From Emcibacter sp. (lineage in GTDB: Bacteria > Pseudomonadota > Alphaproteobacteria > Sphingomonadales > Emcibacteraceae), in contig JAIOYI010000013.1 of the NCBI GenBank assembly GCA_021741205.1, positions 1,773-65,772 on the forward strand: a DNA stretch of 64,000 nt, written 5' to 3'. The notes below the pieces were generated by a model. That model ran no database searches. It was not told the origin of the DNA and worked only from the letters and a program-made list of their open reading frames with translations. Of this stretch, positions 15,266-52,482 are shown piece by piece (within the stretch, counting starts at the first letter, position 1; every line of letters begins with the position of its first letter). A program made the position numbers and the translations under genes.

Positions 15266-15276
15266 ATAATTTAACT

Positions 15277-16785: not shown

Positions 16786-16848
16786 ATATCTTTCACAATT
16801 CTATAATTTGTATAATTAATTATTTCTATCCCATCAATAAGGCAATTT

Positions 16849-18639: not shown

Positions 18640-18669
18640 GTCCTCTTAAATTTCACGAGCGTGCAAAAT

Positions 18670-19254: not shown

Positions 19255-19280
19255 TCTAATACCCAACTAATTTCTTTTAA

Positions 19281-28166: not shown

Positions 28167-28670
28167 TTAGGGCTTATCGCTATTTTTTTTCATTTCATGC
28201 ATTTTTTTCTTCTTGTCCATCATTTTTTTATGGTCTTCTTTGGTTAAATGTCCGTCTTCATTATGATCCATATGGTTAAACTTCATATCTTGTTTGGCAT
28301 CAAATTCTGCTCTTGAAATCTTACCATTTTTATCCGTATCAAGTTTTTCAAAATGTTTTTTTAAACGGCTCTGTTTAACTTTTTCCATGGCCGCCATATG
28401 CTTTTCTTCCATTATATTAGAAAAAGTCACAAATTCCTGATCATCAAGACTACCGTCACTGTTTTTATCAGCACTCATAAAAACATTGTCACCAAAATTC
28501 CTAAACTCCTGATCGCTCACAGTACCGTCATTATCGGCATCCATCAATTCAAGCATGGCAAGATGTTCACCACCTTTCCTTGGCATAGTCCATTTCTCAC
28601 CAGCAAAAACCGATGAAGAAAAAAATATTGCTGTAACGGATACACAGCTGACCAATAATAAATATTTCAT
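28167..28670 (-). CDS. secreted calcium-binding protein with four EF-hand loops
   Basis: Signal peptide (...SSSVFA-GEK). Loops DADNDGTVSDQE, DKNSDGSLDDQE, DTDKNGKISRAE and DHNEDGHLTKED fit the D-x-[DN]-x-[DN]-G-x-[ILV]-x-x-x-[ED] consensus. K/M/H-rich tail. Confidence 0.75.
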   Translation of the reverse strand: MKYLLLVSCVSVTAIFFSSSVFAGEKWTMPRKGGEHLAMLELMDADNDGTVSDQEFRNFGDNVFMSADKNSDGSLDDQEFVTFSNIMEEKHMAAMEKVKQSRLKKHFEKLDTDKNGKISRAEFDAKQDMKFNHMDHNEDGHLTKEDHKKMMDKKKKMHEMKKNSDKP

Positions 28671-28780
28671 TTCTATTTTCCTTAAATTATGTGTTTAAAG
28701 TCCAAACCCCTCTCCTAAAGAGTGATACGGTCTAACTCTGAAAAACATGCGATATAATTTAAGAAAAAATGAGCGCATTT

Positions 28781-29233
28781 CTATATAACGCCCAACGCCG
28801 TTAAAAGAGCCCAACAAGTCATAAATATTAGAATAAGTGACCCAATCGTCCAAAAAGTTGCCCGAACATCATGGGTTTGTGCCGTAAAATAGGCTGCAAA
28901 ATGCATAAATCTGGAAACAACATAACCATAAAGAAGTATTTGAGCCATTAAAAGTGAGGGGTCGGTCATAATGAAAAGAAATCCCGCCACAAGAAAATAG
29001 GGCAAATTTTCCAAATCATTCATCTGAATACGTCGAATGCGATCAACATATTCATTTTTATCAAGCTGGTCTGGAGAAGGCTCAGGATTAAGAGGCGTTT
29101 TTTTAAGGTCTTCTGGCGAACGAAAACCAGCCTTCACTTTCATCATCCGAACAACTGTAAGCCAAGACATACCAACAGCCTTAAGGATCATGAGAGAGGC
29201 TGCAATGACATAAGTATTATAGAGTGTATCCAT
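28781..29233 (-). CDS. MAPEG-family protein (microsomal glutathione S-transferase-like)
   Basis: 150 aa, 4 TM. RRIQMNDLENLPYFLVAGFLF matches the MGST1-type R..H.NDLEN.PFF motif. Confidence 0.7.
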   Translation of the reverse strand: MDTLYNTYVIAASLMILKAVGMSWLTVVRMMKVKAGFRSPEDLKKTPLNPEPSPDQLDKNEYVDRIRRIQMNDLENLPYFLVAGFLFIMTDPSLLMAQILLYGYVVSRFMHFAAYFTAQTHDVRATFWTIGSLILIFMTCWALLTALGVI

Positions 29234-31237: not shown

Positions 31238-32140
31238 ATGATAGAACATAGAGCCCCAAGCCATTTTTTTTATCTCCTTCTTCTTGCCTTATTTTGGGGC
31301 AGCGCCTTTATGTTTGTTAAAATTGGGCTTGAAAGCATATCTCCCATAACACTTGCCGCTGGTCGTATCACTATTGGGGCAATAATTATGATCTTACTGT
31401 CCCTTAAAATGGGCATAAAATTTCCGCAAAAAGTTATGGAATGGTTCCATTGCATGATTGTTGGTATTACGGGTATTATCATTCCCTTTATTCTTATAAA
31501 TTCGAGCATTCAATATGTTCATAGCTCGCTTGCCGCAATTTGCATGTCGCTTTCTCCCCTTTTTACCATAACACTAAGCCACTATATGACCCATGATGAG
31601 AAATTCAGCAAAAACAAATTATTCGGTATAATATTTGGTATATTGGGCGTCATAAGCCTTTTTTACGGCGCTATCACAGATATCAATAATTCTCCTGAAA
31701 TTTATCTGGCTTTACTGGGATTAGTTGCCTCATCATTTTTCTATGCCCTATCTGGTGTTCTGATAAAAAAACTCAAAAACAAGAACCCCATCAGCACGTC
31801 TTCTGCCATGCTCATCACGGCAAGCCTGATTATTATTCCACTTGCTCTCATCATTGAAAAGCCCTGGATGCTTCAGCCCACATCCTCAGCCATTTATGCC
31901 GTATTTGTGCTTGGAATCTTTGCAACGGGAATTGCCTCTCTTGTATTATTCCATCTTACCCATCTCGCTGGTGCAACATTTGTATCTTATAGTGCTTACC
32001 TTATTCCGCTCATTGGAATGGCAGCAGGCAATATCTGGCTTGATGAACCATTAAAAATACATTATACGGTTTCAGTCTTATTTATATTTTCAGGAATTTA
32101 TCTGGCAGAAAAAAAGAAAACTAAATCGAAAATACTCTAG
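31238..32140 (+). CDS. EamA/DMT-family transporter
   Basis: 300 aa, 10 TM, two EamA-like halves (LLALFWGSAFMFVKIG...). Divergent from recX. Confidence 0.8.
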   Translation: MIEHRAPSHFFYLLLLALFWGSAFMFVKIGLESISPITLAAGRITIGAIIMILLSLKMGIKFPQKVMEWFHCMIVGITGIIIPFILINSSIQYVHSSLAAICMSLSPLFTITLSHYMTHDEKFSKNKLFGIIFGILGVISLFYGAITDINNSPEIYLALLGLVASSFFYALSGVLIKKLKNKNPISTSSAMLITASLIIIPLALIIEKPWMLQPTSSAIYAVFVLGIFATGIASLVLFHLTHLAGATFVSYSAYLIPLIGMAAGNIWLDEPLKIHYTVSVLFIFSGIYLAEKKKTKSKIL

Positions 32141-32359
32141 TGTGTCGTATTAAATACGAGAACAACAAAGAATAAATATCTTGGAAAGTAGGCCAACTAG
32201 AGATAAAGTGACTTAATTTAAATTAATTCCTTGCGATTTATAACAACAAAATGTATCGAAGGCACAATAAATTAGAGATAGGAAAGCAACATTACACTGA
32301 TGCTGTCCTGTTAAGGTTGTGGTTATTCCACGGAAAAATACGAGTGATTTTAAAAATAC

Positions 32360-34099
32360 ATGCTTGAACCTATTCCAACACATGACCCTAATCTTCCGCG
32401 CAGATTTTCTGATTTCGGAACATTATTAGAGGCCATAGAATATGCAGCCAAGGGCATTAGGGGTTTGAATTTCTATTCCCCTCGTGGTGAACTTGAAACG
32501 AGCATTACTTTTGCTGAAATAAAAGATAAAGCCCAAGAAATTGGACAACGCTTTATTCATTTTGGTATTGAAAAAGGGGCACGAGTTGCCCTGATTGCCG
32601 AAACAAGCGATGAATTTATTTGTTATTTTATTGGCTGTCAATATGCGGGGCTGTTACCAGTTCCCCTTCCTTTACCCACATCATTCGGTGGACGAGAAGG
32701 TTATACAAGCCAATTAAACCAGCAGATGAAAAGCTGTGGAACATCTGTTGCCATATCCGCATCTTATATGCTTCCCCTTTTGGATGAGGCAACATCTGAT
32801 ATTAAAATGAAATTTGTCGGCACATCAACCACCTTCGAGGCACAGGCAGACTTTAACGATATAAAAAATATTATTCTGCCCGATGTGCAATCAAATGATC
32901 TGGCTTATCTTCAATATTCATCAGGAAGTACACGTTTCCCCCATGGGGTCGCTGTGAGCCATAGGTCTCTTATGGCAAATTGCCACGGCATCGGAGCCGA
33001 AGGAATGCAGCTTAACGAGAATGACCGCGTTGTTTCTTGGTTACCCTTTTACCATGATATGGGTTTAGTCGGAACATTACTGTCCCCCATTGCAAATCAG
33101 GTAACGACGGATTATCTGACTACTGAATCCTTTGCCCGCCGGCCATTACAATGGTTAAAGCTTATTTCCAAAAACAAAGGCACGCTAGCCTATAGTCCAA
33201 CATTTGGTTACGACATATGCACCCGCCGTGCAAGTCCTGCCAATATCGCCGAACTGGATTTATCCAGCTGGCGGGTTGCCGGCATTGGTGGTGATATGAT
33301 CCGTGCTGATGTTCTGACACAATTTCAAGAAACCTTTGAAGAAGTTGGCTTTAAAAGTACAACTTTCGTACCGAGCTATGGACTAGCCGAATGCACGTTA
33401 GCGGTGAGTTTTGCCACCTTAAACAAGGGATTCGAAATAGATTTGGTCAATGAAAAGGTTTTATCTGGAGAAGAAAAACACATCAGTAAATCTAAACTCA
33501 ATGGCAATGGGGCAAAATACCGTAATGTTGTTAATTGTGGCGTTCCCATTTCGGAATATGAATTAGAAATCCGTGATGAAGATGAGAATGATCTTGGTGA
33601 ATATCAAATTGGTCGTGTGTGTGTTCGTGGTACAAGTGTCATGGATGGGTATTTCCAAGACCTTGAATCGACTAAAGCATGCATGTCTGAAGATGGTTGG
33701 TTGGATACAGGCGATATTGGCTATATGAAGGAAGGTTCCCTTTATATCATAGGCAGAATAAAAGACCTTATTATCATCAACGGCAGAAACCACTGGCCCC
33801 AAGATATTGAATGGGCGGTTGAGCAGTTGGATGATCTCCGATCAGGTGACACGGCTGCGGTATCTATTCCCGGCGAACGTGATGAGGAAATTCCAGCGAT
33901 TTTGGTGCAATGCCGCACACGCAACGAAGCAGAACGCCTTACTATGGAAAATAAAATTAAAGATACCGTACATTCCATGCTTGGGATTTCACCGCTCGTT
34001 GCCCTTATTCCACCAAGATCCCTTCCCCGCACTTCTTCTGGAAAACTGAGCAGAGCAAAGGCGAGAAAACAATATCTTGAAGGAAGCCTGACAGCCTAA
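32360..34099 (+). CDS. fatty acyl-AMP ligase (FAAL) / acyl-ACP synthetase-like adenylating enzyme
   Basis: 579 aa. FAAL-type core YLQYSSGSTRFPHGVAVSH, LPFYHDMGLV, SYGLAECT, GDIGY. First gene of the ACP/Spt block. Confidence 0.8.
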   Translation: MLEPIPTHDPNLPRRFSDFGTLLEAIEYAAKGIRGLNFYSPRGELETSITFAEIKDKAQEIGQRFIHFGIEKGARVALIAETSDEFICYFIGCQYAGLLPVPLPLPTSFGGREGYTSQLNQQMKSCGTSVAISASYMLPLLDEATSDIKMKFVGTSTTFEAQADFNDIKNIILPDVQSNDLAYLQYSSGSTRFPHGVAVSHRSLMANCHGIGAEGMQLNENDRVVSWLPFYHDMGLVGTLLSPIANQVTTDYLTTESFARRPLQWLKLISKNKGTLAYSPTFGYDICTRRASPANIAELDLSSWRVAGIGGDMIRADVLTQFQETFEEVGFKSTTFVPSYGLAECTLAVSFATLNKGFEIDLVNEKVLSGEEKHISKSKLNGNGAKYRNVVNCGVPISEYELEIRDEDENDLGEYQIGRVCVRGTSVMDGYFQDLESTKACMSEDGWLDTGDIGYMKEGSLYIIGRIKDLIIINGRNHWPQDIEWAVEQLDDLRSGDTAAVSIPGERDEEIPAILVQCRTRNEAERLTMENKIKDTVHSMLGISPLVALIPPRSLPRTSSGKLSRAKARKQYLEGSLTA

Positions 34100-34202
34100 A
34101 ATACCGTTGTTTTTCGTGTGTACTTTATCTCTCGATATTTATTATTGACGGAAAAACATATATAACGGTAATCTTTACTGAACAGGGATTACCAATTTTA
34201 TT

Positions 34203-35138
34203 ATGACAAAAATAATAGCAGTCACCGGAGGAACAGGGTTTGTTGGTAAACATCTGATTCGTGAACTCATCCATCAAGGATATCACGTTAAAGCTCTGAC
34301 CCGTAGCCCTCAAGCAGAAACCAGTAATGTGAACTGGATTAAGGGTGATCTTGAAAATACTGACTCGCTCAAAAAACTTATAGAAAATTCTGATGCATTG
34401 ATACATTTAGCGGGATTGATTAAAACAAAAAGAAAAGAAAATTTTAAACTCATCAACAGCGAAACAATCCCCAAGCTGTTGGAAATCGTTCACAATATGT
34501 CCTCAAAACCCCATTTTATTCTACTGTCTTCTTTGGCGGCAAGGGAAAGACATTTATCCCATTACGCAGAAAGCAAAAGAAAGGGAGAAGAATTTCTCAT
34601 GAGTGGCGCAAAGAATATCCCATGGACTATTCTGCGACCGCCTGGGATATATGGCCCCGAAGATTTGGAAACCTTAAAGATATTTAAGGCCGTATCTTCT
34701 GGGATTGCCCCATTACCGAAAAATTCACATAATCGCGCATCATGGATTTATGCCCCAGATTTAGCAAAAGCCATCATTTCTTTATTAGGCAATACGGCCT
34801 GTTTTGGACAATGTCTTGATGTTGACGACGGTAAAGAGGGAGGCTATTCAAATCAAGAGCTTTATGCCACAGCCTCAAACATATTAAATGTGAAACCCTT
34901 ACAATTTACGATACCAAAATTTGGCTTAACCTTTATTTCTCATTTAAACGTCTTATTTTCAACATTTTTTGGTTATACTCCGATGATAACGCCAGATAAA
35001 ATAAATGAACTATGTTATCCAGACTGGATATGCCACGGTCCTCATGTTATGAAAGTAACAGAATGGAAACCGCAAACAGATTTAAAACAAGGGTTTGAAA
35101 ATACGCTAAAGTGGTATAAAGAAAATAATCTAATATAA
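34203..35138 (+). CDS. NAD(P)-dependent epimerase/dehydratase-family (extended SDR) protein; candidate ceramide-pathway reductase (CerR-like)
   Basis: 311 aa. Rossmann motif VTGGTGFVGKHLIREL; SDR-like body. Position between the FAAL and ACP-Spt genes mirrors the Caulobacter ceramide locus gene set. Confidence 0.7.
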   Translation: MTKIIAVTGGTGFVGKHLIRELIHQGYHVKALTRSPQAETSNVNWIKGDLENTDSLKKLIENSDALIHLAGLIKTKRKENFKLINSETIPKLLEIVHNMSSKPHFILLSSLAARERHLSHYAESKRKGEEFLMSGAKNIPWTILRPPGIYGPEDLETLKIFKAVSSGIAPLPKNSHNRASWIYAPDLAKAIISLLGNTACFGQCLDVDDGKEGGYSNQELYATASNILNVKPLQFTIPKFGLTFISHLNVLFSTFFGYTPMITPDKINELCYPDWICHGPHVMKVTEWKPQTDLKQGFENTLKWYKENNLI

Positions 35139-35178
35139 TTTTTGCCTGTTATCAAAACTGAACGAATAATTTTTTCAG

Positions 35179-35442
35179 ATGGAAAACTGTATGACACAAA
35201 GTGTTGATGAAATTTTTGAGCGTATCAGTATGCTCATAAAGCCTTTTAATAAGAAAAATATATCCATAAGCAAAGATACTGTATTTAGTATTGATCTGGA
35301 ACTTGATTCTCTGACTGTAATGGATCTGTTATCTGAAATTGAAGATGAATTTGATATTACGGTTCCTCTCAACATGCTTCCAGATCTGGAAACTGTTGGA
35401 CAATTCACTGAGGCTGTACAAAAATTATTGAGCGAACAATGA
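35179..35442 (+). CDS. dedicated acyl carrier protein
   Basis: 87 aa. Phosphopantetheine-attachment motif LELDSLTVMDLLSEIEDEFDI. Stop overlaps the start of the next gene (ATGA). Confidence 0.8.
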   Translation: MENCMTQSVDEIFERISMLIKPFNKKNISISKDTVFSIDLELDSLTVMDLLSEIEDEFDITVPLNMLPDLETVGQFTEAVQKLLSEQ

Positions 35443-36674
35443 CCCAAGATCTTTTTGAAAAATTTAATCCAATCCTAAATAGCTACAACAGCATTCCTTC
35501 GGGGGAGAATAACCCCTTCACTGTTAGCATGGAAAAGGTCTTATCACCAACAACGGCCATCATCAATGGGCGTGAGACCATTCTTGCCGGCACCAATAAC
35601 TATATGGGCATGACGTTTAACGAAGAATGCATAAAGGCCGCGACAGACGCTTTGATGACCTTGGGAACTGGCACAACGGGTTCACGTGTTCTCAACGGAA
35701 CATATAACGGTCACAAAAACCTAGAAGAAACCTTAAAGAAATTTTATGACACAGAATATGCAGTTGTCTTTTCTACGGGTTATCAGGCAAATCTTGGCGT
35801 TATTTCAACACTTGCAGGACCAAAGGATTATATCGTTATTGATGCGGATAGTCATGCCAGCATTTATGATGGTTGTGCATTGGGTAATGCGTCTGTTGTT
35901 CGTTTCAAACATAATGACCCTGAAAATCTTGAAAAAAGATTGAACCGCATTCGCCGAGATGATCCGGAGGCTGGTATTCTTGTTGTTTTAGAAGGCGTCT
36001 ATAGCATGCTTGGTGATCAGGCCCCTCTTAAAGAACTTACAACAATTTCTAAGAAATATGATGCATATGTGCTTGTGGATGAAGCTCATTCCATCGGTGT
36101 TTTTGGCAAGACGGGTCGTGGGGTCGCTCAGGAACAAGATGTGGAAGATCAGGTTGACTTCATCGTGGGAACTTTTAGCAAAAGTGTAGGAACCATTGGC
36201 GGCTATTGTGTTTCAAACCATCCGAAATTTGAAGTATTACGTCTTGTCTGCAGACCTTATATGTTTACGGCATCTCTTCCGCCGTCTGTCGTTGCCTCCG
36301 CAACAAAGGCCTTGGAACTCATTTCCAACAGTAATCTTCGCAGCAAACTATTACAGAATTCCGCCCGTTTAAATAATGGGCTGGATGATGCAGGGTTTGA
36401 TATGGGCACAACAGGTGAAAGTCCCATTGCGGCCATCATTGTAGGCGATCAAAAAACAGCAATCGCTTTCTGGGGTGAGATGATAAGAGAAGGTGTTTAT
36501 GTTAATCTCGCCCTGCCCCCTGCGACACCCAATGGTTTAAATCTGATGCGGTGTAGTTTGTCAGCGGCGCATAGTTTTGAGCAAATTGATTTTATGTTGG
36601 AAAAATTCATAAAAGTTGGCCGTAAATTAGGTCTGTTACAATCTGTCACGGAACGCAATCTTGAAACGGCTTAA
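35439..36674 (+). CDS. spt: alpha-oxoamine synthase family enzyme, serine palmitoyltransferase-like
   Basis: 411 aa. PLP-lysine motif GTFSKSVGTIGG, DEAHSIGVFG, NNYMGM. The genomic context (ACP, FAAL) favours Spt over BioF/Kbl. Confidence 0.75.
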   Translation: MTQDLFEKFNPILNSYNSIPSGENNPFTVSMEKVLSPTTAIINGRETILAGTNNYMGMTFNEECIKAATDALMTLGTGTTGSRVLNGTYNGHKNLEETLKKFYDTEYAVVFSTGYQANLGVISTLAGPKDYIVIDADSHASIYDGCALGNASVVRFKHNDPENLEKRLNRIRRDDPEAGILVVLEGVYSMLGDQAPLKELTTISKKYDAYVLVDEAHSIGVFGKTGRGVAQEQDVEDQVDFIVGTFSKSVGTIGGYCVSNHPKFEVLRLVCRPYMFTASLPPSVVASATKALELISNSNLRSKLLQNSARLNNGLDDAGFDMGTTGESPIAAIIVGDQKTAIAFWGEMIREGVYVNLALPPATPNGLNLMRCSLSAAHSFEQIDFMLEKFIKVGRKLGLLQSVTERNLETA

Positions 36675-36680
36675 CTATTT

Positions 36681-37643
36681 CTAACTTAACCGAATAAACT
36701 TTAAGCGATCCATAATTGTAATCAATATTTCACCTGAATCGCAGGCCTCATAATAGCTTCCGTCCAAGACAAATGCTGTCTGGAGGACAAATCTTGCATG
36801 ATTGATATCGGTTATGATATGGCCTGCGATATCCTTGGTTTCATAATGCCCCTTCAAAAATTCTTTTCCCACATGCATGACGGACTCAGGCGTATTTTCA
36901 ATACTAATAAAATGAGCGAAATCTTTACGTTTTAAGGGATCAAGCGCAATCCCCCACAAAGATTTATCAAGGGTCGTTATAGACAACATAAAGAAATGTC
37001 CCATAACGGCTCCCCGTTGATTTCGATTAATGCGAATGGCATCTTCAAGTTTATTTCTGCTCAGTGCAGAACGATATGCAGACTGAATTAAACCAATTAC
37101 CTTAAATTTACGCCTAAAATAATCAACAAATGATTGCCCTAGTATCTTTCTGTTGAATATATTTTTTTGCTTTACAATCTCTCCAGCACAAAAGAAAAGC
37201 CCATAAAGATGACCAACGCCCCTCACACCCTCAATTTTAATCAGGGAGCATTCAATAATTTTATTTAAAAAATTTTCTTTATGGTGATAATCCAGTAATA
37301 GTTTTCTCAAGGCTATGTGTGGTTCTGACTGATGGGCACCAAAACTCTCAGCAATAATATTATTATCCCCCGCAGGCAGGATCGCCAAAGGAATGTTTCT
37401 GCTCAGTATATTTTTTTCAATAATATGTTCAAAGACAGCCGATGTTAACGCTCTGTCTCCAATAATCACAATAATATCAATATCCGATTTCCGAAACAAC
37501 ATAAGAGCTTCTGTAATATCTTGATGTTTTTCAACCTCATAATGGAAAATACCAGACCCCGATGAGATAACGGAACGAATTTTATTCATTTCATCATTCT
37601 TTAAAAAAGACGACGGACTGCTTAGAATACCAATAATACCCAC
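36681..37643 (-). CDS. diacylglycerol/sphingoid-lipid-kinase-fold protein with degenerate nucleotide-binding motif
   Basis: 320 aa, GTG start. DAGK_cat-like layout: IIGILSSPSS (beta1), IIVIIGDRALTSAV where GGDGT is expected, LAILPAGDNNIIAESFG where iPlGTgNdfa is expected. Convergent with spt, 6-nt gap. Confidence 0.5.
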   Translation of the reverse strand: MGIIGILSSPSSFLKNDEMNKIRSVISSGSGIFHYEVEKHQDITEALMLFRKSDIDIIVIIGDRALTSAVFEHIIEKNILSRNIPLAILPAGDNNIIAESFGAHQSEPHIALRKLLLDYHHKENFLNKIIECSLIKIEGVRGVGHLYGLFFCAGEIVKQKNIFNRKILGQSFVDYFRRKFKVIGLIQSAYRSALSRNKLEDAIRINRNQRGAVMGHFFMLSITTLDKSLWGIALDPLKRKDFAHFISIENTPESVMHVGKEFLKGHYETKDIAGHIITDINHARFVLQTAFVLDGSYYEACDSGEILITIMDRLKFIRLS

Positions 37644-37843
37644 TTAAATTTCCAATTATTCCCATTTAGCCTTAACAGTTAGATTTATTATTTTATCAAT
37701 TTTTAGTCCATAGCCCCATAAAAACCATAAAAAAATATTATCTGACGTAAATATTTTGCTTTTGGGTATATTCTTCTTGCATATATTCTTTTATACCAAA
37801 AGCTACAAATGATATTAGTCTAAATCCAGATCAAAAGCGACGA

Positions 37844-39019
37844 ATGCTAAAAAAAATTGATAAATATATTTTAACAGAGACAATTGTGCCGCTCATGACC
37901 ACGTTGATCATCTCGGCATTGTTACTGCTGCTTGAAAAAATGCTCAGCCTATTTGATTTCGTTATTAATCAAGGAGGGCCCATTGATATTGTCTGGCGGA
38001 TGCTTGGTAACCTCATGCCGCAATATCTGACTTTAGTATTGCCATTATCCGTATTTTTTGGCGTATTGCTTGCCATTCGGAAATTTGCCCTCAACAGTGA
38101 ACTTGATGCTCTGCTTGCCTCTGGCGTTAGTCTAAATCGCCTTATACAACCCAGTTTATATGTGGCAATTGTTTTACTGGTCGTAAATATTATCGTTGTT
38201 GGTTTTGTTCAACCCTATAGTCGTTATACATTTCAAGGTCTTGTTTTTGACATCAGAAGCGGGGCACTAGGAGCAAGCATCAAGGCGGGCGAATTTACGC
38301 CACTTGGTAACGGTCTTACCCTGAGAATCGAAGAATCACGTGATAATGGACGTGAACTGATTGATATATTTGCCCAGAAGGAATCATCCAGTGGCAGAAT
38401 TCAATCTATTAGTGCTGAAAAGGGGAATTTCTTTATTTCTCCTGATAAACGTTATATGATCCTTAGACTTTACAACGGTATGCTGATTGATCTTGATATA
38501 GCCCAAAGCCGTCCTAGCATTGTAAATTTTGATATGCACGACCTACCCCTTGCGGTACCAAATTTTGCAACATTCAGGGAACGTGGAGAAGAAGCCAGAG
38601 AAATGACCATCCTTGAGCTCTGGAATGACCGCAAAAGCAATGACCCCGATGTCATAGCAACCCTTCACTCTCGTCTGGCCCGCGCCCTTTCCATCTTAAT
38701 TGTACCTTTTTTGGCTGTGCCTCTGGGGCTTGTAGCAAAAAGATCCGGGCGGGCACTCGGCATCACGGTTGGTGTGATAATATTGCTTGTTTACCATAAA
38801 ATCTTAGAATTTGGGCAGGATTTTTCTGCTGCTGGGCTTATTTCACCTTGGCTTGTGATTTGGTTACCAACCTTAATATTTGTCCTGCTTACAGCAAGAC
38901 TTTATTATATTGGCACCTACAAAGTTGGTGGCTTGCCGTTAAGGAAGATTGAGATCATCTATGAAATTATAATGGATTCCTTTCACCGCATTGCCAATCG
39001 GTTAAGGATGACAAAGTAA
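37844..39019 (+). CDS. lptF: LPS export ABC permease LptF (YjgP/YjgQ family)
   Basis: 391 aa. Six TM with a large periplasmic beta-jellyroll insert between TM3 and TM4. N-terminal LKKIDKYILTE... is typical of LptF/G. Followed immediately by a paralogue. Confidence 0.75.
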   Translation: MLKKIDKYILTETIVPLMTTLIISALLLLLEKMLSLFDFVINQGGPIDIVWRMLGNLMPQYLTLVLPLSVFFGVLLAIRKFALNSELDALLASGVSLNRLIQPSLYVAIVLLVVNIIVVGFVQPYSRYTFQGLVFDIRSGALGASIKAGEFTPLGNGLTLRIEESRDNGRELIDIFAQKESSSGRIQSISAEKGNFFISPDKRYMILRLYNGMLIDLDIAQSRPSIVNFDMHDLPLAVPNFATFRERGEEAREMTILELWNDRKSNDPDVIATLHSRLARALSILIVPFLAVPLGLVAKRSGRALGITVGVIILLVYHKILEFGQDFSAAGLISPWLVIWLPTLIFVLLTARLYYIGTYKVGGLPLRKIEIIYEIIMDSFHRIANRLRMTK

Positions 39020-40147
39020 ATGGAAAGATTCATTAAATATTCCAATTTTCTTGGCGGAATGCTAGACCCCGGTAGTATGGATATTTACATAGCCAAATTA
39101 TTCATCACTCGGTATATAATCATATTGCTTGGGCTTGTGGCCACCCTGCAAATGTTAGATCTTCTTTCGGAATCAGACAATATTTTAGCAGGTGAAGGGG
39201 CGACTTACGGCGAACTGTGGCATTATATAACCCTCAGAGTACCAACCTTATTATCTCTCTTCTCTCCATTTGTGACCTTACTTGCCGCTATTATCTGTTT
39301 GGCAAGCCTTAATATTCATAGCGAAATTGTTATTATGAAAACCGCTGGTTGGTCTGCTTTTCGCATCATAACCCCCATGATTATGGTATCTTTACTGATT
39401 GCGGTTGTTCATTTCGTTTTCACAGAATCCATCACAGTCAAAGCCAAGGCTGAACTTGAAAACTGGAAAGAGAATGAATATGCCACTAACCTGCCACCTG
39501 CACCAGATACCGTATATGACACATGGGTCAACGACGGCAACAACCTGATCAAGGCAGAAAAGGCCAGCCGTAACGGCAGTATTTTACTTCTCGACAAAGT
39601 TACCCATTATGTTCGTAATAAAAACAGACATATTACATCCCTTATCAAGGCGGACTTTGCCGTCTATCGTGACGGCAAATGGACCATGTTCGAGGTGAGA
39701 GAATTCGACATTCGCACCTTAAAAGTGACCCCCATGGAAAATCTTTTATGGGAAACGGACATTCCACCGGAAAGATTTATCGCTTTGGCCTTAAAACCCG
39801 ATCAGGTTAGCATTAAAAAACTCCGTAGTGCCATTACCCAACTGAAAAAAGAAGGTCATAATACGGCAAGTTTTGAAACTATGTTATTTCAAAAATTTGT
39901 CTCTCCCTTGAGTACATTACTCATGCCTCTACTTGCAGGACTTGCCGCATTTGGACTTCATAGAGGCGGAAATTTATTTAGACGTATTATGTTTACGGGT
40001 GCCATGGGCTTTGGTTATTTTGTGATCAATAACCTTTTTGTTGCTCTTGGACAATATGGTGCGGTACCGCCCTTTATTGCCGCTTGGTTGCCATTTTTGC
40101 TATTTTTTCTAATTGGCACCAGTTTTATTCTCATCACCGAAGAATAA
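39020..40147 (+). CDS. lptG: LPS export ABC permease LptG (YjgP/YjgQ family)
   Basis: 375 aa with the same architecture as lptF. The start abuts the lptF stop (TAAATG). The true start may be an internal Met (MDIYIAKLF...). Confidence 0.75.
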   Translation: MERFIKYSNFLGGMLDPGSMDIYIAKLFITRYIIILLGLVATLQMLDLLSESDNILAGEGATYGELWHYITLRVPTLLSLFSPFVTLLAAIICLASLNIHSEIVIMKTAGWSAFRIITPMIMVSLLIAVVHFVFTESITVKAKAELENWKENEYATNLPPAPDTVYDTWVNDGNNLIKAEKASRNGSILLLDKVTHYVRNKNRHITSLIKADFAVYRDGKWTMFEVREFDIRTLKVTPMENLLWETDIPPERFIALALKPDQVSIKKLRSAITQLKKEGHNTASFETMLFQKFVSPLSTLLMPLLAGLAAFGLHRGGNLFRRIMFTGAMGFGYFVINNLFVALGQYGAVPPFIAAWLPFLLFFLIGTSFILITEE

Positions 40148-40167
40148 TGAGAAATTAGAGAGATATT

Positions 40168-41313
40168 ATGACATCAGACATCACTATAACAGAAGTCACG
40201 AACAACCAAATTTTGAAACAGTTCGTCAAATTTCCCTTGTCGCTCTATAAAAATGATGCCAATTGGGTGGCACCATTAACGATGGAACGTATGGAAATTC
40301 TTAATCCTAAGAAAAACCCCTATTTTGAACATGCCAAGGCAAAATTATGGCTCGCCTATCAAGACGGTAAAATTGTTGGGCGCATTACCGCACAAATTGA
40401 TGAACTTGTCGAACAACGTTATCACGAAAAAATCGGTCATTTTGGTTTTTTTGACTGTATCAATGATCAAAATGTTGCGAATGCTCTTTTGGATACGGCT
40501 TTTTCTTGGTTAAAATCAGAAGGACGTGAGAAAGTGATTGGCCCGTTCAGTCTGTCCATCAACGAAGAAACGGGCCTGCTTACAGAAGGATTTGACACAC
40601 CTCCTAGTCTTATGATGAATCACGCCTTACCTTATTTTCAAGACCTGATTACTGGATATGGCATGGAAAAAATTAAGGATTTATGGGCATATTACCTTAA
40701 AATTGATAATAACATTTTACCGCCAACCATTGATAAGCTTATCAAGCGTAGCATGCGTGATGGAAAAATCAGATTACGTCCCATTAATATGAAAAATTAT
40801 GAGGAAGATCTCAAAACCATACTTGATATTTATAATGATGCATGGTCTGACAACTGGATGTCTCTGCCCTTCACAGAAACCGAACTGAATAAAACAGTCA
40901 AAGACCTTAAATTACTTATTCGTAGTGATTTTACCTTTATAGCAGAATATGACGGCGTTCCCATGGCCATGATGGTAACGCTGCCTAATCTTAATGAAAT
41001 TATAAAAGACCTACAGGGTAGTCTTTTTCCTTTTGGAATATTCAAGCTCTTATGGCGACTTAAATTACGCCCAAATTATAAGACCGTTCGTGTTCCCTTG
41101 ATGGGGGTGCGTAAAGAATATCAAAATACCGCCGTCGGCGGGGCTATGGCCTTTGCGCTTATTGAGGAATGCAGAATTCATGCTGAAAAGGCAGGCTGCA
41201 CCCACGCAGAACTATCATGGGTTTTGGACGAGAATACAAGACTATCCAAAATGCTGGAAAGCATTGGTTGTTGGAAATATAAAAAATATTGCATGTATAC
41301 AAAGACACTATAA
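40168..41313 (+). CDS. large GNAT-like N-acyltransferase family protein (candidate bacterial ceramide synthase)
   Basis: 381 aa. Conserved-looking N-terminus FVKFPLSLYKNDANWVAPL...NPYFEHAKAKLWLAYQDGKIVGRITAQID...GHFGFFDC and C-terminal acyltransferase-like VRKEYQNTAVGGAMAF. Sits 20 nt downstream of lptG. Confidence 0.5.
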   Translation: MTSDITITEVTNNQILKQFVKFPLSLYKNDANWVAPLTMERMEILNPKKNPYFEHAKAKLWLAYQDGKIVGRITAQIDELVEQRYHEKIGHFGFFDCINDQNVANALLDTAFSWLKSEGREKVIGPFSLSINEETGLLTEGFDTPPSLMMNHALPYFQDLITGYGMEKIKDLWAYYLKIDNNILPPTIDKLIKRSMRDGKIRLRPINMKNYEEDLKTILDIYNDAWSDNWMSLPFTETELNKTVKDLKLLIRSDFTFIAEYDGVPMAMMVTLPNLNEIIKDLQGSLFPFGIFKLLWRLKLRPNYKTVRVPLMGVRKEYQNTAVGGAMAFALIEECRIHAEKAGCTHAELSWVLDENTRLSKMLESIGCWKYKKYCMYTKTL

Positions 41314-41383: not shown

Positions 41384-42058
41384 ATGACTGACGATCTACT
41401 TATTGATAACAAAAAAACTTTTCTACAACGCTTAAGAACATATTTCCTAACGGGTCTTGTGGTCGCATCGCCTGTGGGTATTACAATCTATCTTGCCCTC
41501 GCATTCATTGATTTGATCGATCGTAATATTAAACCATTAATTCCCGCAGGCTATAATCCTGATAATTATCTACCCTTTCCTATACCAGGACTTGGTCTTA
41601 TTTTTCTGTTTATTATTCTGACATTGCTTGGTTTTCTTGCGGCCAACTTTATGGGAAAAACCCTCATTCACCTAGGGGAAAGAATTCTTAATCGCATGCC
41701 CATCGTCAGAAGCGTCTATAATACGCTAAAGCAAATTTTTGAAACGGTTATTTCTGAAAATACAGGAAGTTTTCAAGAAGTGGTTCTGGTTGAATATCCC
41801 CGCAAGGGATTATGGGCTATCGCCTTTATTTCTGGTGAAAATGTGGGCGAAATACAAGAAAAAATGGATGATGATATCGTCAATGTTTTCCTGCCTACCA
41901 CACCAAACCCCACATCGGGCTTTCTTTTATTTGTACCCAAAAAGGACATTATTCATCTTGATATGACCCCCGATGAAGGAGCAAAATATGTGATTTCCGC
42001 CGGACTTGTGGATCCCAGCAATTTAAAAGTTAAAAATAAAAAACCGCCCTCCAAATAA
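41384..42058 (+). CDS. DUF502-family membrane protein
   Basis: 224 aa. Two N-terminal TMs and the LPTTPNPTSGFLLFVPK motif characteristic of DUF502. Confidence 0.7.
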   Translation: MTDDLLIDNKKTFLQRLRTYFLTGLVVASPVGITIYLALAFIDLIDRNIKPLIPAGYNPDNYLPFPIPGLGLIFLFIILTLLGFLAANFMGKTLIHLGERILNRMPIVRSVYNTLKQIFETVISENTGSFQEVVLVEYPRKGLWAIAFISGENVGEIQEKMDDDIVNVFLPTTPNPTSGFLLFVPKKDIIHLDMTPDEGAKYVISAGLVDPSNLKVKNKKPPSK

Positions 42059-48197: not shown

Positions 48198-48572
48198 ATG
48201 TTTAAAGCCATACAAACAAGTATTTCGGGATTAGTTGCTTCTACGGTGCGGGCAAATACCGCCGCCAGTAATATTGTTCATTCAACCGTTAAATCATCAC
48301 CCTTTAATGCGGGCTATACCCCGCAGCATGTGGAACAATCTACTACGGCAAATGGCGGCGTTCGTGCCAATGTTATTCCCGTGTCCCCCACAAGCCTTTC
48401 TGTATATGATCCCACGTCTCCTTTTGCAAATGGTGGTGGAAATGTTGACATACCAAATATTTCTTTGCCAGCCGAGATTGGGGAACTTACTAAGGCGAGC
48501 AATGCCTATAAGGCTAATGCAAAAGTTCTAAAATCCTTAGACGATACCTTCAAAACGCTCCTTAAAATTTAA
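48198..48572 (+). CDS. FlgC-like flagellar basal-body rod family protein (orphan in this window)
   Basis: 124 aa. N-terminal ISGLVASTVRANTAASNIVH (FlgC consensus: SGL.A...R....A.NiAN), central Y.PQHV...GGV.A.V....YDP..P.A...G.V..PN, C-terminal E...L..A...YKANAKV. Weak RBS. Confidence 0.55.
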   Translation: MFKAIQTSISGLVASTVRANTAASNIVHSTVKSSPFNAGYTPQHVEQSTTANGGVRANVIPVSPTSLSVYDPTSPFANGGGNVDIPNISLPAEIGELTKASNAYKANAKVLKSLDDTFKTLLKI

Positions 48573-49901: not shown

Positions 49902-49967
49902 GATATAAGTTCACAGCCAACTTTATAAAACTGTCGAATTTAATCAGCAAGGAATATTCAAATAGTC

Positions 49968-50741
49968 ATGGCAGAAAATAACAAAAAAATTGCCCTTGTC
50001 GCCTCCGATACAGATGTTGCACAAGATGCTGCACGTAACCTTGAACAATGCTATAATTTTGTCCCCATAGATGAAGCAGATATAATAATAGCTCTTGGCG
50101 GTGATGGATTTATTCTGCATTTAATTCATGAAATTATGCCCCATAAAGCTTCTATTTTTGGTATGAACAGGGGCACAGTAGGTTTTTTGCTCAATGAATT
50201 CAAGACAGAGGGACTTATTCAACGTATCAATAATGCAGACTCTATTGCGCTACATCCCTTACGAATGACAGCCCATACCGACAATGGCCAGAAAATAGAG
50301 GCCCTTGCCATTAACGAGGTATCACTCCTTCGGCAAACGCGGCAAACGGCTAAAATTAAAATTCTTATTGACCATAAAGTTAGAATGGAAGAGTTGGTCT
50401 GTGATGGTATATTGCTTTCTACTGCCGCGGGCAGTACGGCGTATAATCTTTCTGCCCATGGCCCAATCATTCCCATTAAGGCAGAAATTATGGCCTTAAC
50501 GCCCATCAGTGCATTCCGCCCAAGACGTTGGAGGGGTGCTCTTTTGCCTCAAAATTCAAATGTTACTTTTGAAATAATTGATCCTAAAAAACGCCCTGTA
50601 AGTGCAGTCGCTGATACTACAGAGGTACGAAATATTACAAAAGTAGATATTAAACAAGACAGATCAATCAAAATAAACCTGCTCTTTGATGGCGATCATA
50701 CCCTAGAAGAGAGAACACTCAATGAGCAATTTATCTATTAA
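49968..50741 (+). CDS. nadK: NAD kinase
   Basis: 257 aa. GGDGFIL motif, [27 protein letters not shown]. Confidence 0.85.
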
Positions 50742-50773
50742 AATGCAAGTCACAAACAAACATAAGTACTAAA

Positions 50774-52480: not shown

Positions 52481-52482
52481 TG

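What the first reader, a model, noticed from the sequence alone, without database searches (positions are those of the whole stretch)
32360..41313. Ceramide/sphingolipid biosynthesis-type locus: FAAL, SDR reductase, dedicated ACP, Spt-like synthase plus accessory genes
Four co-directional genes encode a fatty acyl-AMP ligase (YLQYSSGSTRFPHGV core), an extended-SDR reductase (VTGGTGFVGK), a stand-alone ACP (LDSL site) and an alpha-oxoamine synthase (GTFSKS PLP lysine). The ACP stop overlaps the synthase start (ATGA). This is the gene set shown in Caulobacter crescentus to make ceramide: Spt, dedicated ACP, acyl-ACP synthetase, CerR reductase and a GNAT-type ceramide synthase. A candidate for the fifth gene lies 3.5 kb downstream (40168-41313), and a lipid-kinase-fold gene is convergent with spt. 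Bacterial sphingolipid synthesis is rare outside Sphingomonadales, Bacteroidota, Myxococcota and a few Caulobacterales. Finding it in an AT-rich, gene-decaying genome would be noteworthy, and the gene order differs from Caulobacter.
Basis: partly seen in the sequence, partly recalled or inferred. Interest (0 to 1): 0.7.

Follow-up and report, generated by a model that had tools for sequence, protein, structure and literature searches.

The report
Ceramide synthesis gene cluster, Emcibacter
This is a compact but otherwise standard bacterial gene cluster for making ceramide (a sphingolipid backbone) in a free-living marine Emcibacter. This bacterial group is already reported to carry such genes, so the locus is real but mostly ordinary.

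Summary
The core interpretation also holds. The synthase is a serine palmitoyltransferase, not BioF or Kbl. The FAAL, SDR, ACP, Spt and GNAT proteins each match, over their full length, the five proteins of the E. coli BL21 ceramide cluster (AasR, ECD_02852, AcpR, SPT, YghO). That cluster's AasR, AcpR and SPT have been tested biochemically, and the literature lists all five as orthologs of the Caulobacter genes.

Three side claims fail. The gene order is collinear with Caulobacter and S. wittichii: aasR-cerR-acpR-spt-(cpgB)-lptF-lptG-cerS. The window is about 88% coding with intact housekeeping genes, so it is not decaying. The host is an Emcibacter, and the spt operon is already published as most frequent in the SERIK group that includes Emcibacterales.

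Two small twists emerged. The kinase-fold gene is a CpgB-type protein that, across Emcibacteraceae, has lost the GGDG ATP motif, and its partner genes are missing from these loci. A conserved, partly structured leader of about 150 nt, with no Rfam match, precedes the operon.

Verdict: new member of a known kind; interest is low to moderate.

The parts
32181..32359 (+). Promoter-like element (TTGGAA at 32181-32186, 17 nt, TAAAGT at 32204-32209) followed by a conserved 5' leader of about 150 nt. The leader has an inverted-repeat block at 32231-32259, a variable-sequence hairpin at 32277-32312, and the block GGTGGTTATTCCAC at about 32317-32333.
   Evidence: Conserved in all 13 Emcibacter-type loci that include this region. 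The exact motif occurs once per such locus and in none of the 72 other loci. The hairpin is more stable than shuffles in 11 of 13 sequences although the stems differ in sequence. No Rfam match. Function is unknown.
32360..34099 (+). aasR-type fatty acyl-AMP ligase (acyl-AcpR synthetase), 579 aa
   Evidence: NF006624 FAAL, 797 bits against a cutoff of 600. Best solved relative is 3pbk at 530 bits, and 3pbk is essentially E. coli AasR ECD_02851. BLASTP against AasR_Ec gives 45% identity over 561 aa, E 5e-178.
34203..35138 (+). cerR-type extended SDR reductase, 311 aa
   Evidence: Pfam Epimerase, 3Beta_HSD and NAD_binding_10. The GGTGFVG and YAESK motifs are present in the sequence. Best PDB relatives are NDUFA9/39-kDa complex I subunits, as published for CerR (PMC11087976). 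It is 32% identical over 303 aa, E 2.5e-55, to ECD_02852, the listed ortholog of CC_1164. It occupies the same position as CC_1164.
35179..35442 (+). acpR-type dedicated acyl carrier protein (87 aa, or 83 aa if translation starts at 35191)
   Evidence: PP-binding domain, 41.6 bits. It scores below every housekeeping AcpP cutoff. The DSL serine is present. It is 38% identical over 63 aa, E 2e-11, to AcpR_Ec. Its stop codon overlaps the spt start codon.
35439..36674 (+). spt, serine palmitoyltransferase, 411 aa
   Evidence: NF047599, 620 bits against a cutoff of 500. It scores 513 bits against S. wittichii SPT 2x8u and is 47% identical to the active E. coli SPT. The equivalents of His159, Asp231, His234, Lys265 and Arg390 are conserved.
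36681..37643 (-). CpgB-position, DAGK-fold protein whose kinase motifs have degenerated (probable pseudokinase or repurposed protein), 320 aa
   Evidence: Pfam DAGK_cat scores 22.8 bits, below the gathering score of 23.6. The Foldseek top 30 are all DgkB, SphK1 or YegS lipid kinases. It is homologous to the Kordiimonas and L070 proteins at the cpgB position. GGDGT, GKTN and DGE are replaced throughout Emcibacteraceae, which has instead its own conserved motifs.
37844..39019 (+). lptF-family permease embedded in the cluster
   Evidence: TIGR04407, 261 bits against a cutoff of 230. It occupies the same position as CC_1156/Swit_3905. It is closer to canonical E. coli LptF (58.5 bits) than to the E. 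coli B paralog (36 bits).
39020..40147 (+). lptG-family permease embedded in the cluster
   Evidence: TIGR04408, 283 bits against a cutoff of 240. It occupies the same position as CC_1155/Swit_3906. It scores 109 bits against canonical E. coli LptG and 72 bits against the E. coli B paralog.
40168..41313 (+). bCerS/YghO-family N-acyltransferase (ceramide synthase candidate), 381 aa, starting 20 nt after lptG
   Evidence: Pfam Acetyltransf_1, 33 bits. It is 45% identical over 377 aa, E 5e-114, to E. coli YghO (ECD_02850), the listed ortholog of CC_1154. It is syntenic in about 65 loci. A relative at 78% identity is annotated 'associated with Serine palmitoyltransferase'.
41384..42058 (+). DUF502 membrane protein, co-directional with and 70 nt downstream of the GNAT gene; its membership in the system is uncertain
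   Evidence: PF04367, 132 bits. It follows the GNAT gene in the Emcibacter clade and in several other lineages. The Caulobacter gene descriptions list no counterpart.

Best explanation
This is the alphaproteobacterial ('Rhodobacteria'-type) dihydroceramide biosynthesis cluster in an Emcibacter chromosome.

Inferred pathway, taken from characterised orthologs:
1. The FAAL-type AasR adenylates a free fatty acid and loads it onto the dedicated carrier protein AcpR. A holo-ACP synthase is encoded elsewhere in the window.
2. Spt, a PLP enzyme, condenses acyl-AcpR with L-serine to give 3-oxosphinganine.
3. The YghO/bCerS-family GNAT adds the N-acyl chain.
4. The NDUFA9-like SDR CerR reduces the 3-keto group, giving dihydroceramide. 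The order of steps 3 and 4 is disputed in the literature.

The lptF-lptG pair sits between spt and the ceramide synthase gene, which starts 20 nt after lptG. It may feed the lipid into an Lpt-type export route, as proposed but not shown for Caulobacter LptF2/G2.

Compared with Caulobacter, Kordiimonas and Hyphomicrobiales versions, the Emcibacter version is stripped down. The head-group genes are absent from this locus, and the CpgB-type kinase homolog has lost its ATP-binding motifs. The end product is therefore more likely plain (dihydro)ceramide, or a derivative made by unlinked genes, than ceramide phosphoglycerate.

Shown here: family assignments, synteny and motif states. Inferred: every enzymatic step and the transport role.
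For: Spt:
- It passes the NCBIfam equivalog cutoff (620 bits against 500), while it falls below the BioF and Kbl cutoffs.
- Its best solved relatives are bacterial SPTs at 513 and 466 bits, against 231 or less for Kbl, BioF and ALAS.
- The catalytic residues are intact.

Match to the E. coli BL21 cluster yghO-aasR-epi-acpR-spt (L083), by BLASTP:
- FAAL 45% identity, E 5e-178.
- SDR 32%, E 2.5e-55.
- ACP 38%, E 2e-11.
- Spt 47%, E 5e-128.
- GNAT 45%, E 5e-114.
- In the reverse direction, each E. coli protein hits only the expected window gene.
- AasR, AcpR and SPT of that cluster are biochemically characterised, and its five genes are listed as orthologs of CC_1165, 1164, 1163, 1162 and 1154 (PMC9386255).

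Other protein evidence:
- 3pbk is essentially AasR_Ec and is the FAAL's best solved relative.
- The SDR's best solved relatives are NDUFA9 subunits, as published for CerR.

Gene order:
- It is identical to the published Caulobacter and S. wittichii maps.
- It is conserved in about 80 genomes from Emcibacter to Hyphomicrobiales MAGs.
- L070 reproduces the Caulobacter cluster domain for domain.

Literature: the spt operon is already reported in the SERIK group, which includes Emcibacterales.
Against: - There is no lipid or enzyme data for this organism.
- I could not compare the proteins directly with the Caulobacter sequences CCNA_01212, 01222 and 01218. The link runs through E. coli orthologs and synteny.
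- ECD_02852 and YghO are themselves only predicted in E. coli; the genetic and biochemical tests were done on the Caulobacter orthologs.
- The LptFG pair resembles canonical E. coli LptFG more than the E. coli B cluster paralogs, so a role in sphingolipid export is speculative.
- Loss of the head-group genes is shown only for the window and the 21-kb loci. The genome-wide evidence is a truncated hit list.
Confidence: 0.85

Rival explanations
1. The alpha-oxoamine synthase is not a serine palmitoyltransferase. It would instead be a BioF-, Kbl-, CqsA- or cysteate-acyltransferase-type enzyme, and the FAAL/ACP pair would feed a biotin-like, autoinducer, sulfonolipid or polyketide-like pathway.
For: The family is broad, and weaker hits to BioF, Kbl, ALAS, CqsA and cysteate-C-fatty acyltransferase do exist.
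Against: Only the Spt equivalog cutoff is passed. BioF scores 328 against a cutoff of 426, and Kbl 327 against 460. Solved SPTs score 466-513 bits, against 231 for Kbl, 211 for cysteate acyltransferase, about 165 for BioF and 125 for CqsA. The protein is 47% identical to the biochemically active E. coli SPT. The window has no biotin or polyketide context.
Confidence: 0.03
2. The cluster is a decaying remnant in a reduced genome and no longer makes any lipid.
For: The kinase-like gene has lost its catalytic motifs, and several accessory genes are missing.
Against: All core ORFs are intact, and they are 62-87% identical to orthologs in more than 10 other Emcibacter-type genomes with the same order. 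Catalytic residues are conserved. The window is at least 88% coding with intact housekeeping genes. Even the kinase-like protein carries invariant family-specific motifs in 27 sequences, which indicates selection.
Confidence: 0.03
3. On the lptFG part: the embedded LptF/LptG are simply the organism's ordinary LPS permeases. Their position in the cluster would be inherited synteny with no role in moving sphingolipid.
For: Both pass the LptF and LptG equivalog cutoffs. Both are closer to canonical E. coli LptF/G (58.5 and 109 bits) than to the E. coli B cluster paralogs (36 and 72 bits). No second lptFG pair is seen in the 64-kb window.
Against: Linkage of lptFG with spt and cerS persists across Caulobacter, S. 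wittichii, E. coli B, Kordiimonas, Iodidimonas and Hyphomicrobiales-type loci. In this clade cerS starts 20 nt after lptG. In Caulobacter, CC_1156 mutants show cofitness with sphingolipid-gene mutants. PGAP also names the E. coli B paralogs LptF/LptG, so the cutoffs do not discriminate between the two kinds.
Confidence: 0.4
4. On the kinase-like gene: it is still an active ceramide kinase, like CpgB, that binds ATP through a divergent loop, and the product is ceramide-1-phosphate.
For: It has the DAGK fold, sits at the cpgB position, is an intact ORF in every Emcibacteraceae genome seen, and is strongly conserved. The window's subclade retains a Gly-Asp dipeptide (IGDRA).
Against: GGDGT, GKTN and DGE are all replaced. 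In the E. nanhaiensis and Pseudemcibacter subclade the loop reads GGQA, so the Asp is gone as well. Pfam DAGK_cat falls below its gathering score here, but scores 48-52 bits in Kordiimonas and L070. The partner cpgC-position gene is absent from all Emcibacter-type loci and from the best 120 database hits.
Confidence: 0.2

Closest known systems
Caulobacter crescentus sphingolipid region CC_1168-CC_1152 (aasR CC_1165, cerR CC_1164, acpR CC_1163, spt CC_1162, cpgC/B/A CC_1161-1159, lptF2/G2 CC_1156/1155, bcerS CC_1154)
   Same: It has the same five core gene families in the same relative order: aasR-cerR-acpR-spt ... kinase ... lptF-lptG-cerS. The reductase is NDUFA9-like, and acpR lies immediately upstream of spt.
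   Different: The window lacks counterparts of CC_1161, 1159, 1158, 1157, 1153, 1152, 1166, 1167 and 1168. The CpgB-position protein lacks GGDG. The cluster is about 9 kb rather than 17 genes. I could not make a direct sequence comparison with the Caulobacter proteins.
Escherichia coli B/BL21(DE3) cluster yghO (ECD_02850)-ECD_02854 plus the lptG/lptF paralogs
   Same: All five core proteins match over their full length at 32-47% identity. acpR and spt are adjacent, and an lptFG pair lies next to spt. AasR, AcpR and SPT of this cluster are biochemically characterised (PMC9386255).
   Different: In E. coli, yghO is divergent and lies upstream of aasR, and lptG/F are inverted downstream of spt. 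E. coli has no kinase-fold gene. The E. coli lptF/G copies are clear paralogs of a canonical pair, whereas the status of the window's pair is unknown.
Sphingomonas wittichii RW1 Swit_3897-3908 (with the solved SPT structure 2x8u)
   Same: This SPT is the window Spt's closest solved relative, at 513 bits. The order cerR-acp-spt-cpgC-cpgB-lptF-lptG-cerS matches.
   Different: In Sphingomonadaceae aasR is unlinked, whereas here it heads the operon. S. wittichii keeps cpgC and cpgB.
Kordiimonas, Iodidimonas and other SERIK-group loci (for example L034 and L052)
   Same: They have the same order and orthologous proteins: Spt about 60%, FAAL about 57%, and GNAT about 44% identical. They belong to the lineage group already reported to carry the spt operon.
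   Different: They retain a gene at the cpgC position, a kinase with intact GGDGT, a DUF2141 gene, a MatE-like flippase and an upstream class-V aminotransferase. All of these are absent from Emcibacter-type loci. They also lack the Emcibacter-type leader.

Membership tests
Bacterial serine palmitoyltransferase (Spt) | Scores above the curated family cutoff and below the cutoffs of sister alpha-oxoamine synthases | tested here: met
   NF047599 scores 620 bits against a cutoff of 500. bioF scores 328 against 426, Kbl 327 against 460, and ALAS 232 against 339. The alphaproteobacterial model NF047603 scores 563, below its cutoff of 670.
Bacterial serine palmitoyltransferase (Spt) | Closest characterised or solved relatives are SPTs | tested here: met
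   2x8u scores 513 bits and 2w8j 466 bits, against 231 for Kbl, about 165 for BioF and 173 for ALAS. The protein is 47% identical to the active E. coli SPT.
Bacterial serine palmitoyltransferase (Spt) | PLP lysine and catalytic His/Asp/His/Arg (S. paucimobilis H159, D231, H234, K265, R390) | tested here: met
   All are conserved in the alignment. The R378 equivalent is Leu, as it is in the active E. coli SPT.
Bacterial serine palmitoyltransferase (Spt) | Forms 3-oxosphinganine from serine plus an acyl thioester | not testable with these tools
   This needs an enzyme assay.
AcpR (dedicated sphingolipid ACP) | Small PP-binding protein with a DSL serine, encoded immediately upstream of spt, and distinct from housekeeping AcpP | tested here: met
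   PF00550 scores 41.6 bits. It falls below every AcpP equivalog cutoff. The gene overlaps spt as ATGA. It is 38% identical over 63 aa to AcpR_Ec, E 2e-11.
AcpR (dedicated sphingolipid ACP) | Acylated selectively by the cognate AasR and preferred by Spt | not testable with these tools
   This is a biochemical property (PMC9386255).
AasR (FAAL-type acyl-AcpR synthetase) | FAAL-subfamily adenylating enzyme homologous to characterised AasR and linked to acpR-spt | tested here: met
   NF006624 scores 797 bits against a cutoff of 600. It is 45% identical over 561 aa to AasR_Ec. Its best solved relative, 3pbk, is essentially AasR_Ec. The gene heads the operon.
CerR (ceramide reductase) | NDUFA9-like extended SDR with an NAD(P)-binding GxxGxxG and a YxxxK motif, encoded between aasR and acpR | tested here: met
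   Pfam Epimerase and 3Beta_HSD. GGTGFVG and YAESK are present in the sequence. The top PDB hits are NDUFA9/39-kDa subunits. It is 32% identical over 303 aa, E 2.5e-55, to ECD_02852, the listed ortholog of CC_1164.
CerR (ceramide reductase) | Direct similarity to C. crescentus CCNA_01222; periplasmic location | not tested
bCerS (bacterial ceramide synthase, CC_1154/YghO family) | GNAT-fold protein of about 380 aa, homologous over its full length to family members and linked to spt and lptFG | tested here: met
   Acetyltransf_1 scores 33 bits against a cutoff of 20.7. It is 45% identical over 377 aa, E 5e-114, to YghO ECD_02850, listed as the CC_1154 ortholog. It lies directly after lptG, as in Caulobacter and S. 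wittichii.
bCerS (bacterial ceramide synthase, CC_1154/YghO family) | Direct similarity to CCNA_01212; N-acylation of (3-oxo)sphinganine | not tested
CpgB (bacterial ceramide kinase) | DAGK-type catalytic fold | tested here: met
   The Foldseek top 30 are DgkB, SphK1, YegS and related DAG kinases, E 2e-6 to 5e-3. The N-terminal domain has pLDDT 80-90. Pfam DAGK_cat scores only 22.8 bits against a gathering score of 23.6.
CpgB (bacterial ceramide kinase) | Conserved GGDG ATP-binding motif (PMC10331486) | tested here: not met
   The window reads IGDRAL. All 27 Emcibacteraceae proteins read GDRAL or GGQA(L/I), while about 50 homologs outside the family keep NGGDGT. GKTN and DGE are also replaced.
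CpgB (bacterial ceramide kinase) | Encoded between spt and lptF next to a cpgC (CC_1161-type) gene | tested here: inconclusive
   The position between spt and lptF matches. The cpgC-position gene is absent from all Emcibacter-type loci.
LptF/LptG permeases | Score above the LptF and LptG equivalog cutoffs | tested here: met
   TIGR04407 scores 261 against 230, and TIGR04408 scores 283 against 240.
LptF2/LptG2 (second, sphingolipid-associated copies) | A separate canonical lptFG pair exists elsewhere in the same genome | not testable with these tools
Similarity leans towards the canonical pair but does not decide the question.

The most novel reading that the evidence does not exclude
Emcibacteraceae run a streamlined ceramide module that differs in kind from the Caulobacter system in three ways:
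- A single lptFG pair, co-transcribed with the ceramide synthase gene, handles export of ceramide, and perhaps of LPS too.
- The former ceramide kinase has been converted into a non-catalytic ceramide-binding or regulatory protein.
- The aasR-cerR-acpR-spt operon is controlled by a previously undescribed structured RNA leader.
Probability: 0.12. Interest if true: 0.55.

Novelty: new member of a known kind. Interest (0 to 1): 0.25.

Why it matters
The locus adds one more well-supported example of the bacterial ceramide pathway. It comes from a marine lineage with cultured representatives: E. nanhaiensis, P. congregatus and P. aquimaris.

Its practical value is as a minimal natural version. Five core genes plus lptFG sit within about 9 kb, apparently without the phosphoglycerate head-group genes. 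This makes it a convenient test bed for three open questions:
- Does an Lpt-type machine move sphingolipids to the outer membrane? This is proposed but untested in Caulobacter.
- In which order do the acylation and reduction steps occur?
- What does a motif-less CpgB relative do?

None of this overturns current understanding.

Tried and rejected
- I could not read the paper that defines bCerS and CerR (PMC8891067 is not held), and no Caulobacter sequences were retrievable. The link to the Caulobacter genes therefore runs through the E. coli BL21 cluster and synteny.
- A DNA-level search with spt against E. coli genomes found nothing. I fetched the cluster by accession instead.
- I guessed that the block at 14339-21428(-) was an lpxD-fabZ-lpxA-bamA LPS cluster. 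It is era, rnc, lepB, acpS, pdxJ, pyrE and spoT. No LPS genes other than lptFG were found in the window.
- Consensus promoter and terminator scans of the locus were at chance level and were not used.
- I checked the R378-to-Leu change in Spt as a possible sign of altered substrate. I rejected that idea because the active E. coli SPT has the same residue.
- The AF2 model of the kinase-like protein is reliable only for residues 1-135, so I attempted no active-site geometry.
- RNAalifold on the leader found only invariant stems and no compensatory pairs. The variable hairpin had to be assessed one sequence at a time, which is weaker evidence.
- Whether the lptFG pair is the sole copy could not be resolved, because the genome-collection scan was exhausted and hit lists are truncated at 120.
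- The genome-wide absence of cpgC in Emcibacteraceae rests on a truncated top-120 list and is only suggestive.

Full report
**What is there**

- a 579-aa adenylating enzyme (32360-34099)
- a 311-aa SDR (34203-35138)
- an 87-aa carrier protein (35179-35442)
- a 411-aa alpha-oxoamine synthase (35439-36674)
- a convergent 320-aa gene (36681-37643, minus strand)
- a 381-aa GNAT protein (40168-41313)

The quoted motifs are present. The ACP stop codon overlaps the synthase start codon as ATGA. The GNAT gene starts 20 nt after lptG. A DUF502 gene follows 70 nt later and ends 2 nt from the convergent recG.

**Whose genome**

The GNAT protein is 100% identical to a deposited "hypothetical protein K9G26_10950 [Emcibacter sp.]". 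The closest Spt loci (79-87% identity) are Emcibacter and Paremcibacter MAGs. Kordiimonas follows at about 60%, then Iodidimonas, then Hyphomicrobiales-type MAGs at about 52%. NCBI places Emcibacter in Emcibacterales, Alphaproteobacteria.

The window is 40.4% GC and at least 88% coding. It is filled with intact housekeeping genes: rpsI/rplM, ctaA, malic enzyme, ald, era-rnc-lepB-acpS-pdxJ, pyrE, spoT, rpoZ, folK, smpB, dapA, recX, recG, sdhE, mfd, purB/C/Q and one tRNA-Leu. Nothing supports a "gene-decaying" genome.

**Is the synthase an Spt?**

Yes.
- It passes the curated cutoff of an NCBIfam serine palmitoyltransferase equivalog (620 bits against 500). It fails the BioF, Kbl and ALAS cutoffs.
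- Among solved structures, it scores 513 bits against S. wittichii SPT and 466 against S. paucimobilis SPT. It scores 231 for the best Kbl, 211 for cysteate acyltransferase, about 165 for BioF, 173 for ALAS and 125 for CqsA.
- The equivalents of His159, Asp231, His234, Lys265 and Arg390 are conserved. The Arg378 equivalent is Leu, exactly as in the biochemically active E. coli SPT.

**The other four core proteins**

The literature showed that E. coli B/BL21(DE3) carries all five ceramide genes together: yghO/ECD_02850, aasR/ECD_02851, epi/ECD_02852, acpR/ECD_02853 and spt/ECD_02854. AasR, AcpR and SPT of that cluster have been tested biochemically, and each of the five genes is listed as the ortholog of CC_1154, 1165, 1164, 1163 and 1162 respectively (PMC9386255). 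I fetched that locus (L083) and compared the proteins directly:

| Window protein | E. coli BL21 protein | Identity | E-value |
|---|---|---|---|
| FAAL | AasR | 45% over 561 aa | 5e-178 |
| SDR | ECD_02852 | 32% over 303 aa | 2.5e-55 |
| ACP | AcpR | 38% over 63 aa | 2e-11 |
| Spt | SPT | 47% over 387 aa | 5e-128 |
| GNAT | YghO | 45% over 377 aa | 5e-114 |

In the reverse direction, each E. coli protein hits only the expected window gene.

Independent support:
- The FAAL passes the FAAL subfamily cutoff. Its best solved relative, 3pbk, is essentially AasR_Ec itself.
- The SDR's best solved relatives are NDUFA9/39-kDa complex I subunits, which is the published description of CerR (PMC11087976).
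- The ACP scores below all housekeeping AcpP cutoffs.

**Gene order**

The published Caulobacter map reads: aasR (CC_1165), cerR (1164), acpR (1163), spt (1162), cpgC (1161), cpgB (1160), cpgA (1159), 1158, 1157, lptF2 (1156), lptG2 (1155), cerS (1154). S. wittichii has Swit_3897 (cerR), 3899 (acp), 3900 (spt), 3902 (cpgC), 3903 (cpgB), 3905/3906 (lptF2/G2) and 3908 (cerS) (PMC11324152).

The window reads FAAL-SDR-ACP-Spt-kinase-LptF-LptG-GNAT, which is the same order.

A tblastn survey of 80 related loci shows this order in every Emcibacter-type genome. It also appears, with extra genes inserted, in Kordiimonas, Iodidimonas, Eilatimonas and Rhodothalassiaceae, and with lptGF and the GNAT gene inverted in Hyphomicrobiales-type MAGs.

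One of those, L070, reproduces the Caulobacter cluster domain for domain:
- a gene at the CC_1161 position
- a DAGK_cat kinase
- a CDP-alcohol phosphatidyltransferase
- LptG and LptF
- a HIT protein
- a metallophosphoesterase
- two nucleotidyltransferases
- the GNAT protein

**What is special about the Emcibacter version**

Compared with the Kordiimonas locus L034, the window lacks:
- the 313-aa gene at the cpgC position
- a DUF2141 gene
- a 510-aa MatE-like flippase
- an upstream class-V aminotransferase

Compared with L070, it lacks the genes of CC_1159, 1158, 1157, 1153 and 1152 type. None of these has a homolog anywhere in the 64-kb window or in any Emcibacter-type locus.

I also searched 5.8 billion proteins with the cpgC-position protein of L014, the nearest lineage that still has one. 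The best 120 hits came from Kordiimonas, Gimibacter, Yunchengibacter and Pseudokordiimonas, and none from Emcibacter, Paremcibacter or Pseudemcibacter. Those genomes are in the database, because they supply the GNAT and kinase-like hits. This suggests genome-wide loss, but the list is truncated, so it is not proof.

**The kinase-fold gene**

An AlphaFold model built from 27 sequences is confident for residues 1-135 and poor for the C-terminal half. Its best 30 PDB matches are all DgkB, other bacterial DAG kinases, sphingosine kinase 1 and YegS.

The protein is homologous to the proteins at the cpgB position in Kordiimonas and L070. However, the feature that the CpgB paper highlights, the GGDG ATP-binding motif (PMC10331486), is missing:
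- About 50 homologs outside Emcibacteraceae read NGGDGT, GKTNM and DGE.
- All Emcibacteraceae proteins read [ILV]GDRAL or [IV]GGQA[LI], then GDNN or more divergent strings, then DGS or DGC. This includes E. nanhaiensis, P. congregatus and P. aquimaris.
- Pfam DAGK_cat drops from 48-52 bits in Kordiimonas and L070 to 22.8 bits here, below the gathering score.

The family is nevertheless intact in every genome seen and has its own invariant motifs: R(I/V)NRNQRGAV, HYEV, SVENT and HAR. It is therefore under selection.

I do not file it as a CpgB kinase. The most likely reading is a CpgB-derived pseudokinase or repurposed lipid-binding protein. An active kinase with an unusual nucleotide loop remains possible, at about 0.2.

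**LptF/LptG**

Both pass the LptF and LptG equivalog cutoffs. That does not separate housekeeping copies from dedicated ones, because PGAP gives the same names to the second pair in the E. coli B cluster.

The window's proteins are closer to canonical E. coli LptF/G (58.5 and 109 bits) than to the E. coli B cluster paralogs (36 and 72 bits) (PDB searches agree).

Whether Emcibacter has another lptFG pair could not be determined here. Transport of sphingolipids by such proteins is a published hypothesis, not a demonstrated fact.

**Mechanism**

These steps are inferred from characterised orthologs:
1. AasR activates a fatty acid and loads holo-AcpR. An acpS gene lies at 16849-17259.
2. Spt condenses acyl-AcpR with serine to give 3-oxosphinganine.
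3. The YghO/bCerS-family enzyme N-acylates.
4. CerR reduces the keto group, giving dihydroceramide. The two published models differ on the order of steps 3 and 4.

Because the head-group genes are missing and the kinase motifs are lost, ceramide phosphoglycerate is unlikely to be the end product here.

**Novelty**

Three sources bear on this:
- Geiger et al. 2023 state that the four-gene operon ending in spt, together with its partner genes, is most frequent in the SERIK group (Sneathiellales, Emcibacterales, Rhodothalassiales, Iodidimonadales, Kordiimonadales) (PMC10411912).
- A relative of the GNAT protein at 78% identity is already annotated "associated with Serine palmitoyltransferase".
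- Other work predicts sphingolipid genes in dozens of phyla.

The locus is a new member of a known kind. The family-wide motif loss in the CpgB homolog, the compaction and the leader are modest additions.

**Side observation**

Upstream of aasR, all 13 Emcibacter-type loci that include this region share, in order:
- a promoter-like TTGGAA-17 nt-TAAA(A/G)T element
- an invariant CTTGCGATAC-N13-GTATCGAAGG inverted repeat
- a hairpin whose sequence varies between loci but which stays more stable than shuffles in 11 of 13 cases (z from -2.1 to -5.5)
- a GGTGGAT.TATCCAC block
- an invariant stretch running to the start codon

The region has no Rfam match even at E up to 1. The core motif occurs once per Emcibacter-type locus and in none of the 72 other loci. 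A covariance model finds only a weak candidate, directly upstream of aasR in L014 (E 0.17). RNAalifold found no compensatory pairs in the aligned stems. The RNA-versus-operator question therefore stays open.

Noticed in passing
window 32181-32359: A conserved promoter-like element is followed by a leader of about 150 nt upstream of the FAAL/aasR gene. The leader has an invariant CGATAC-N13-GTATCG inverted repeat, a variable-sequence hairpin (32277-32312) that stays stable across 11 of 13 loci, and an invariant tract up to the ATG. It has no Rfam match and is restricted to Emcibacter-type loci, with one weak candidate in L014. It could be a cis-regulatory RNA or a set of operator sites.
   Followed up: partly
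window 31238-32140 (+): An EamA/DMT-family transporter gene lies immediately upstream of the ceramide operon. It overlaps the start of the divergent recX gene. It is conserved at this position in the Emcibacter clade and in several Iodidimonas-like and other loci (L017, L020, L025, L052, L055, L059, L068). It has no counterpart in the Caulobacter cluster description.
   Followed up: no
window 41384-42058 (+): A DUF502 membrane-protein gene follows the ceramide-synthase candidate in the same orientation. The pairing recurs in several lineages besides Emcibacter (L014, L016, L017, L052, L059, L061, L065, L068). A functional link to the cluster is unknown.
   Followed up: no
L083 16920-19066 (E. 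coli BL21(DE3) NC_012971.2 2994920-2997066): The E. coli B ceramide cluster carries a second lptG-lptF pair, about 28-29% identical to the canonical pair at 4397810-4399992. RefSeq names both pairs plainly as LptG/LptF. Annotation alone therefore cannot tell sphingolipid-associated Lpt paralogs from the LPS exporter.
   Followed up: partly
window 35439-36674: This alphaproteobacterial Spt passes the cutoff of the NCBIfam model labelled for Betaproteobacteria (620 against 500). It falls below the cutoff of the model labelled for Alphaproteobacteria (563 against 670). The SERIK-type Spt is evidently not well represented by the alphaproteobacterial model.
   Followed up: no
window 16849-18044 (-): acpS (holo-ACP synthase) and pdxJ (PLP synthesis) sit side by side in a housekeeping operon with era, rnc and lepB. 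They supply the cofactors that AcpR and Spt need, but they are ordinary genes and not part of the cluster.
   Followed up: no
window 48786-53613: Two DUF2336 paralogs (48786-49901 on the plus strand, 52483-53613 on the minus strand) flank an NAD-kinase-like gene and a PAS-domain histidine kinase. A small ORF with a flagellar rod C-terminal motif lies at 48198-48572.
   Followed up: no
window 18016-18639 (-): A 207-aa ORF between pdxJ and pyrE gives a sub-threshold match (112 bits against a cutoff of 300) to the NCBIfam model named for the type IV secretion effector BspA. It is probably just a shared conserved domain.
   Followed up: no
window 28167-29233 (-): A secreted-looking EF-hand calcium-binding protein (28167-28670) sits next to a MAPEG-family membrane protein (28781-29233). 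Both are conserved on the identical Logan contig.
   Followed up: no
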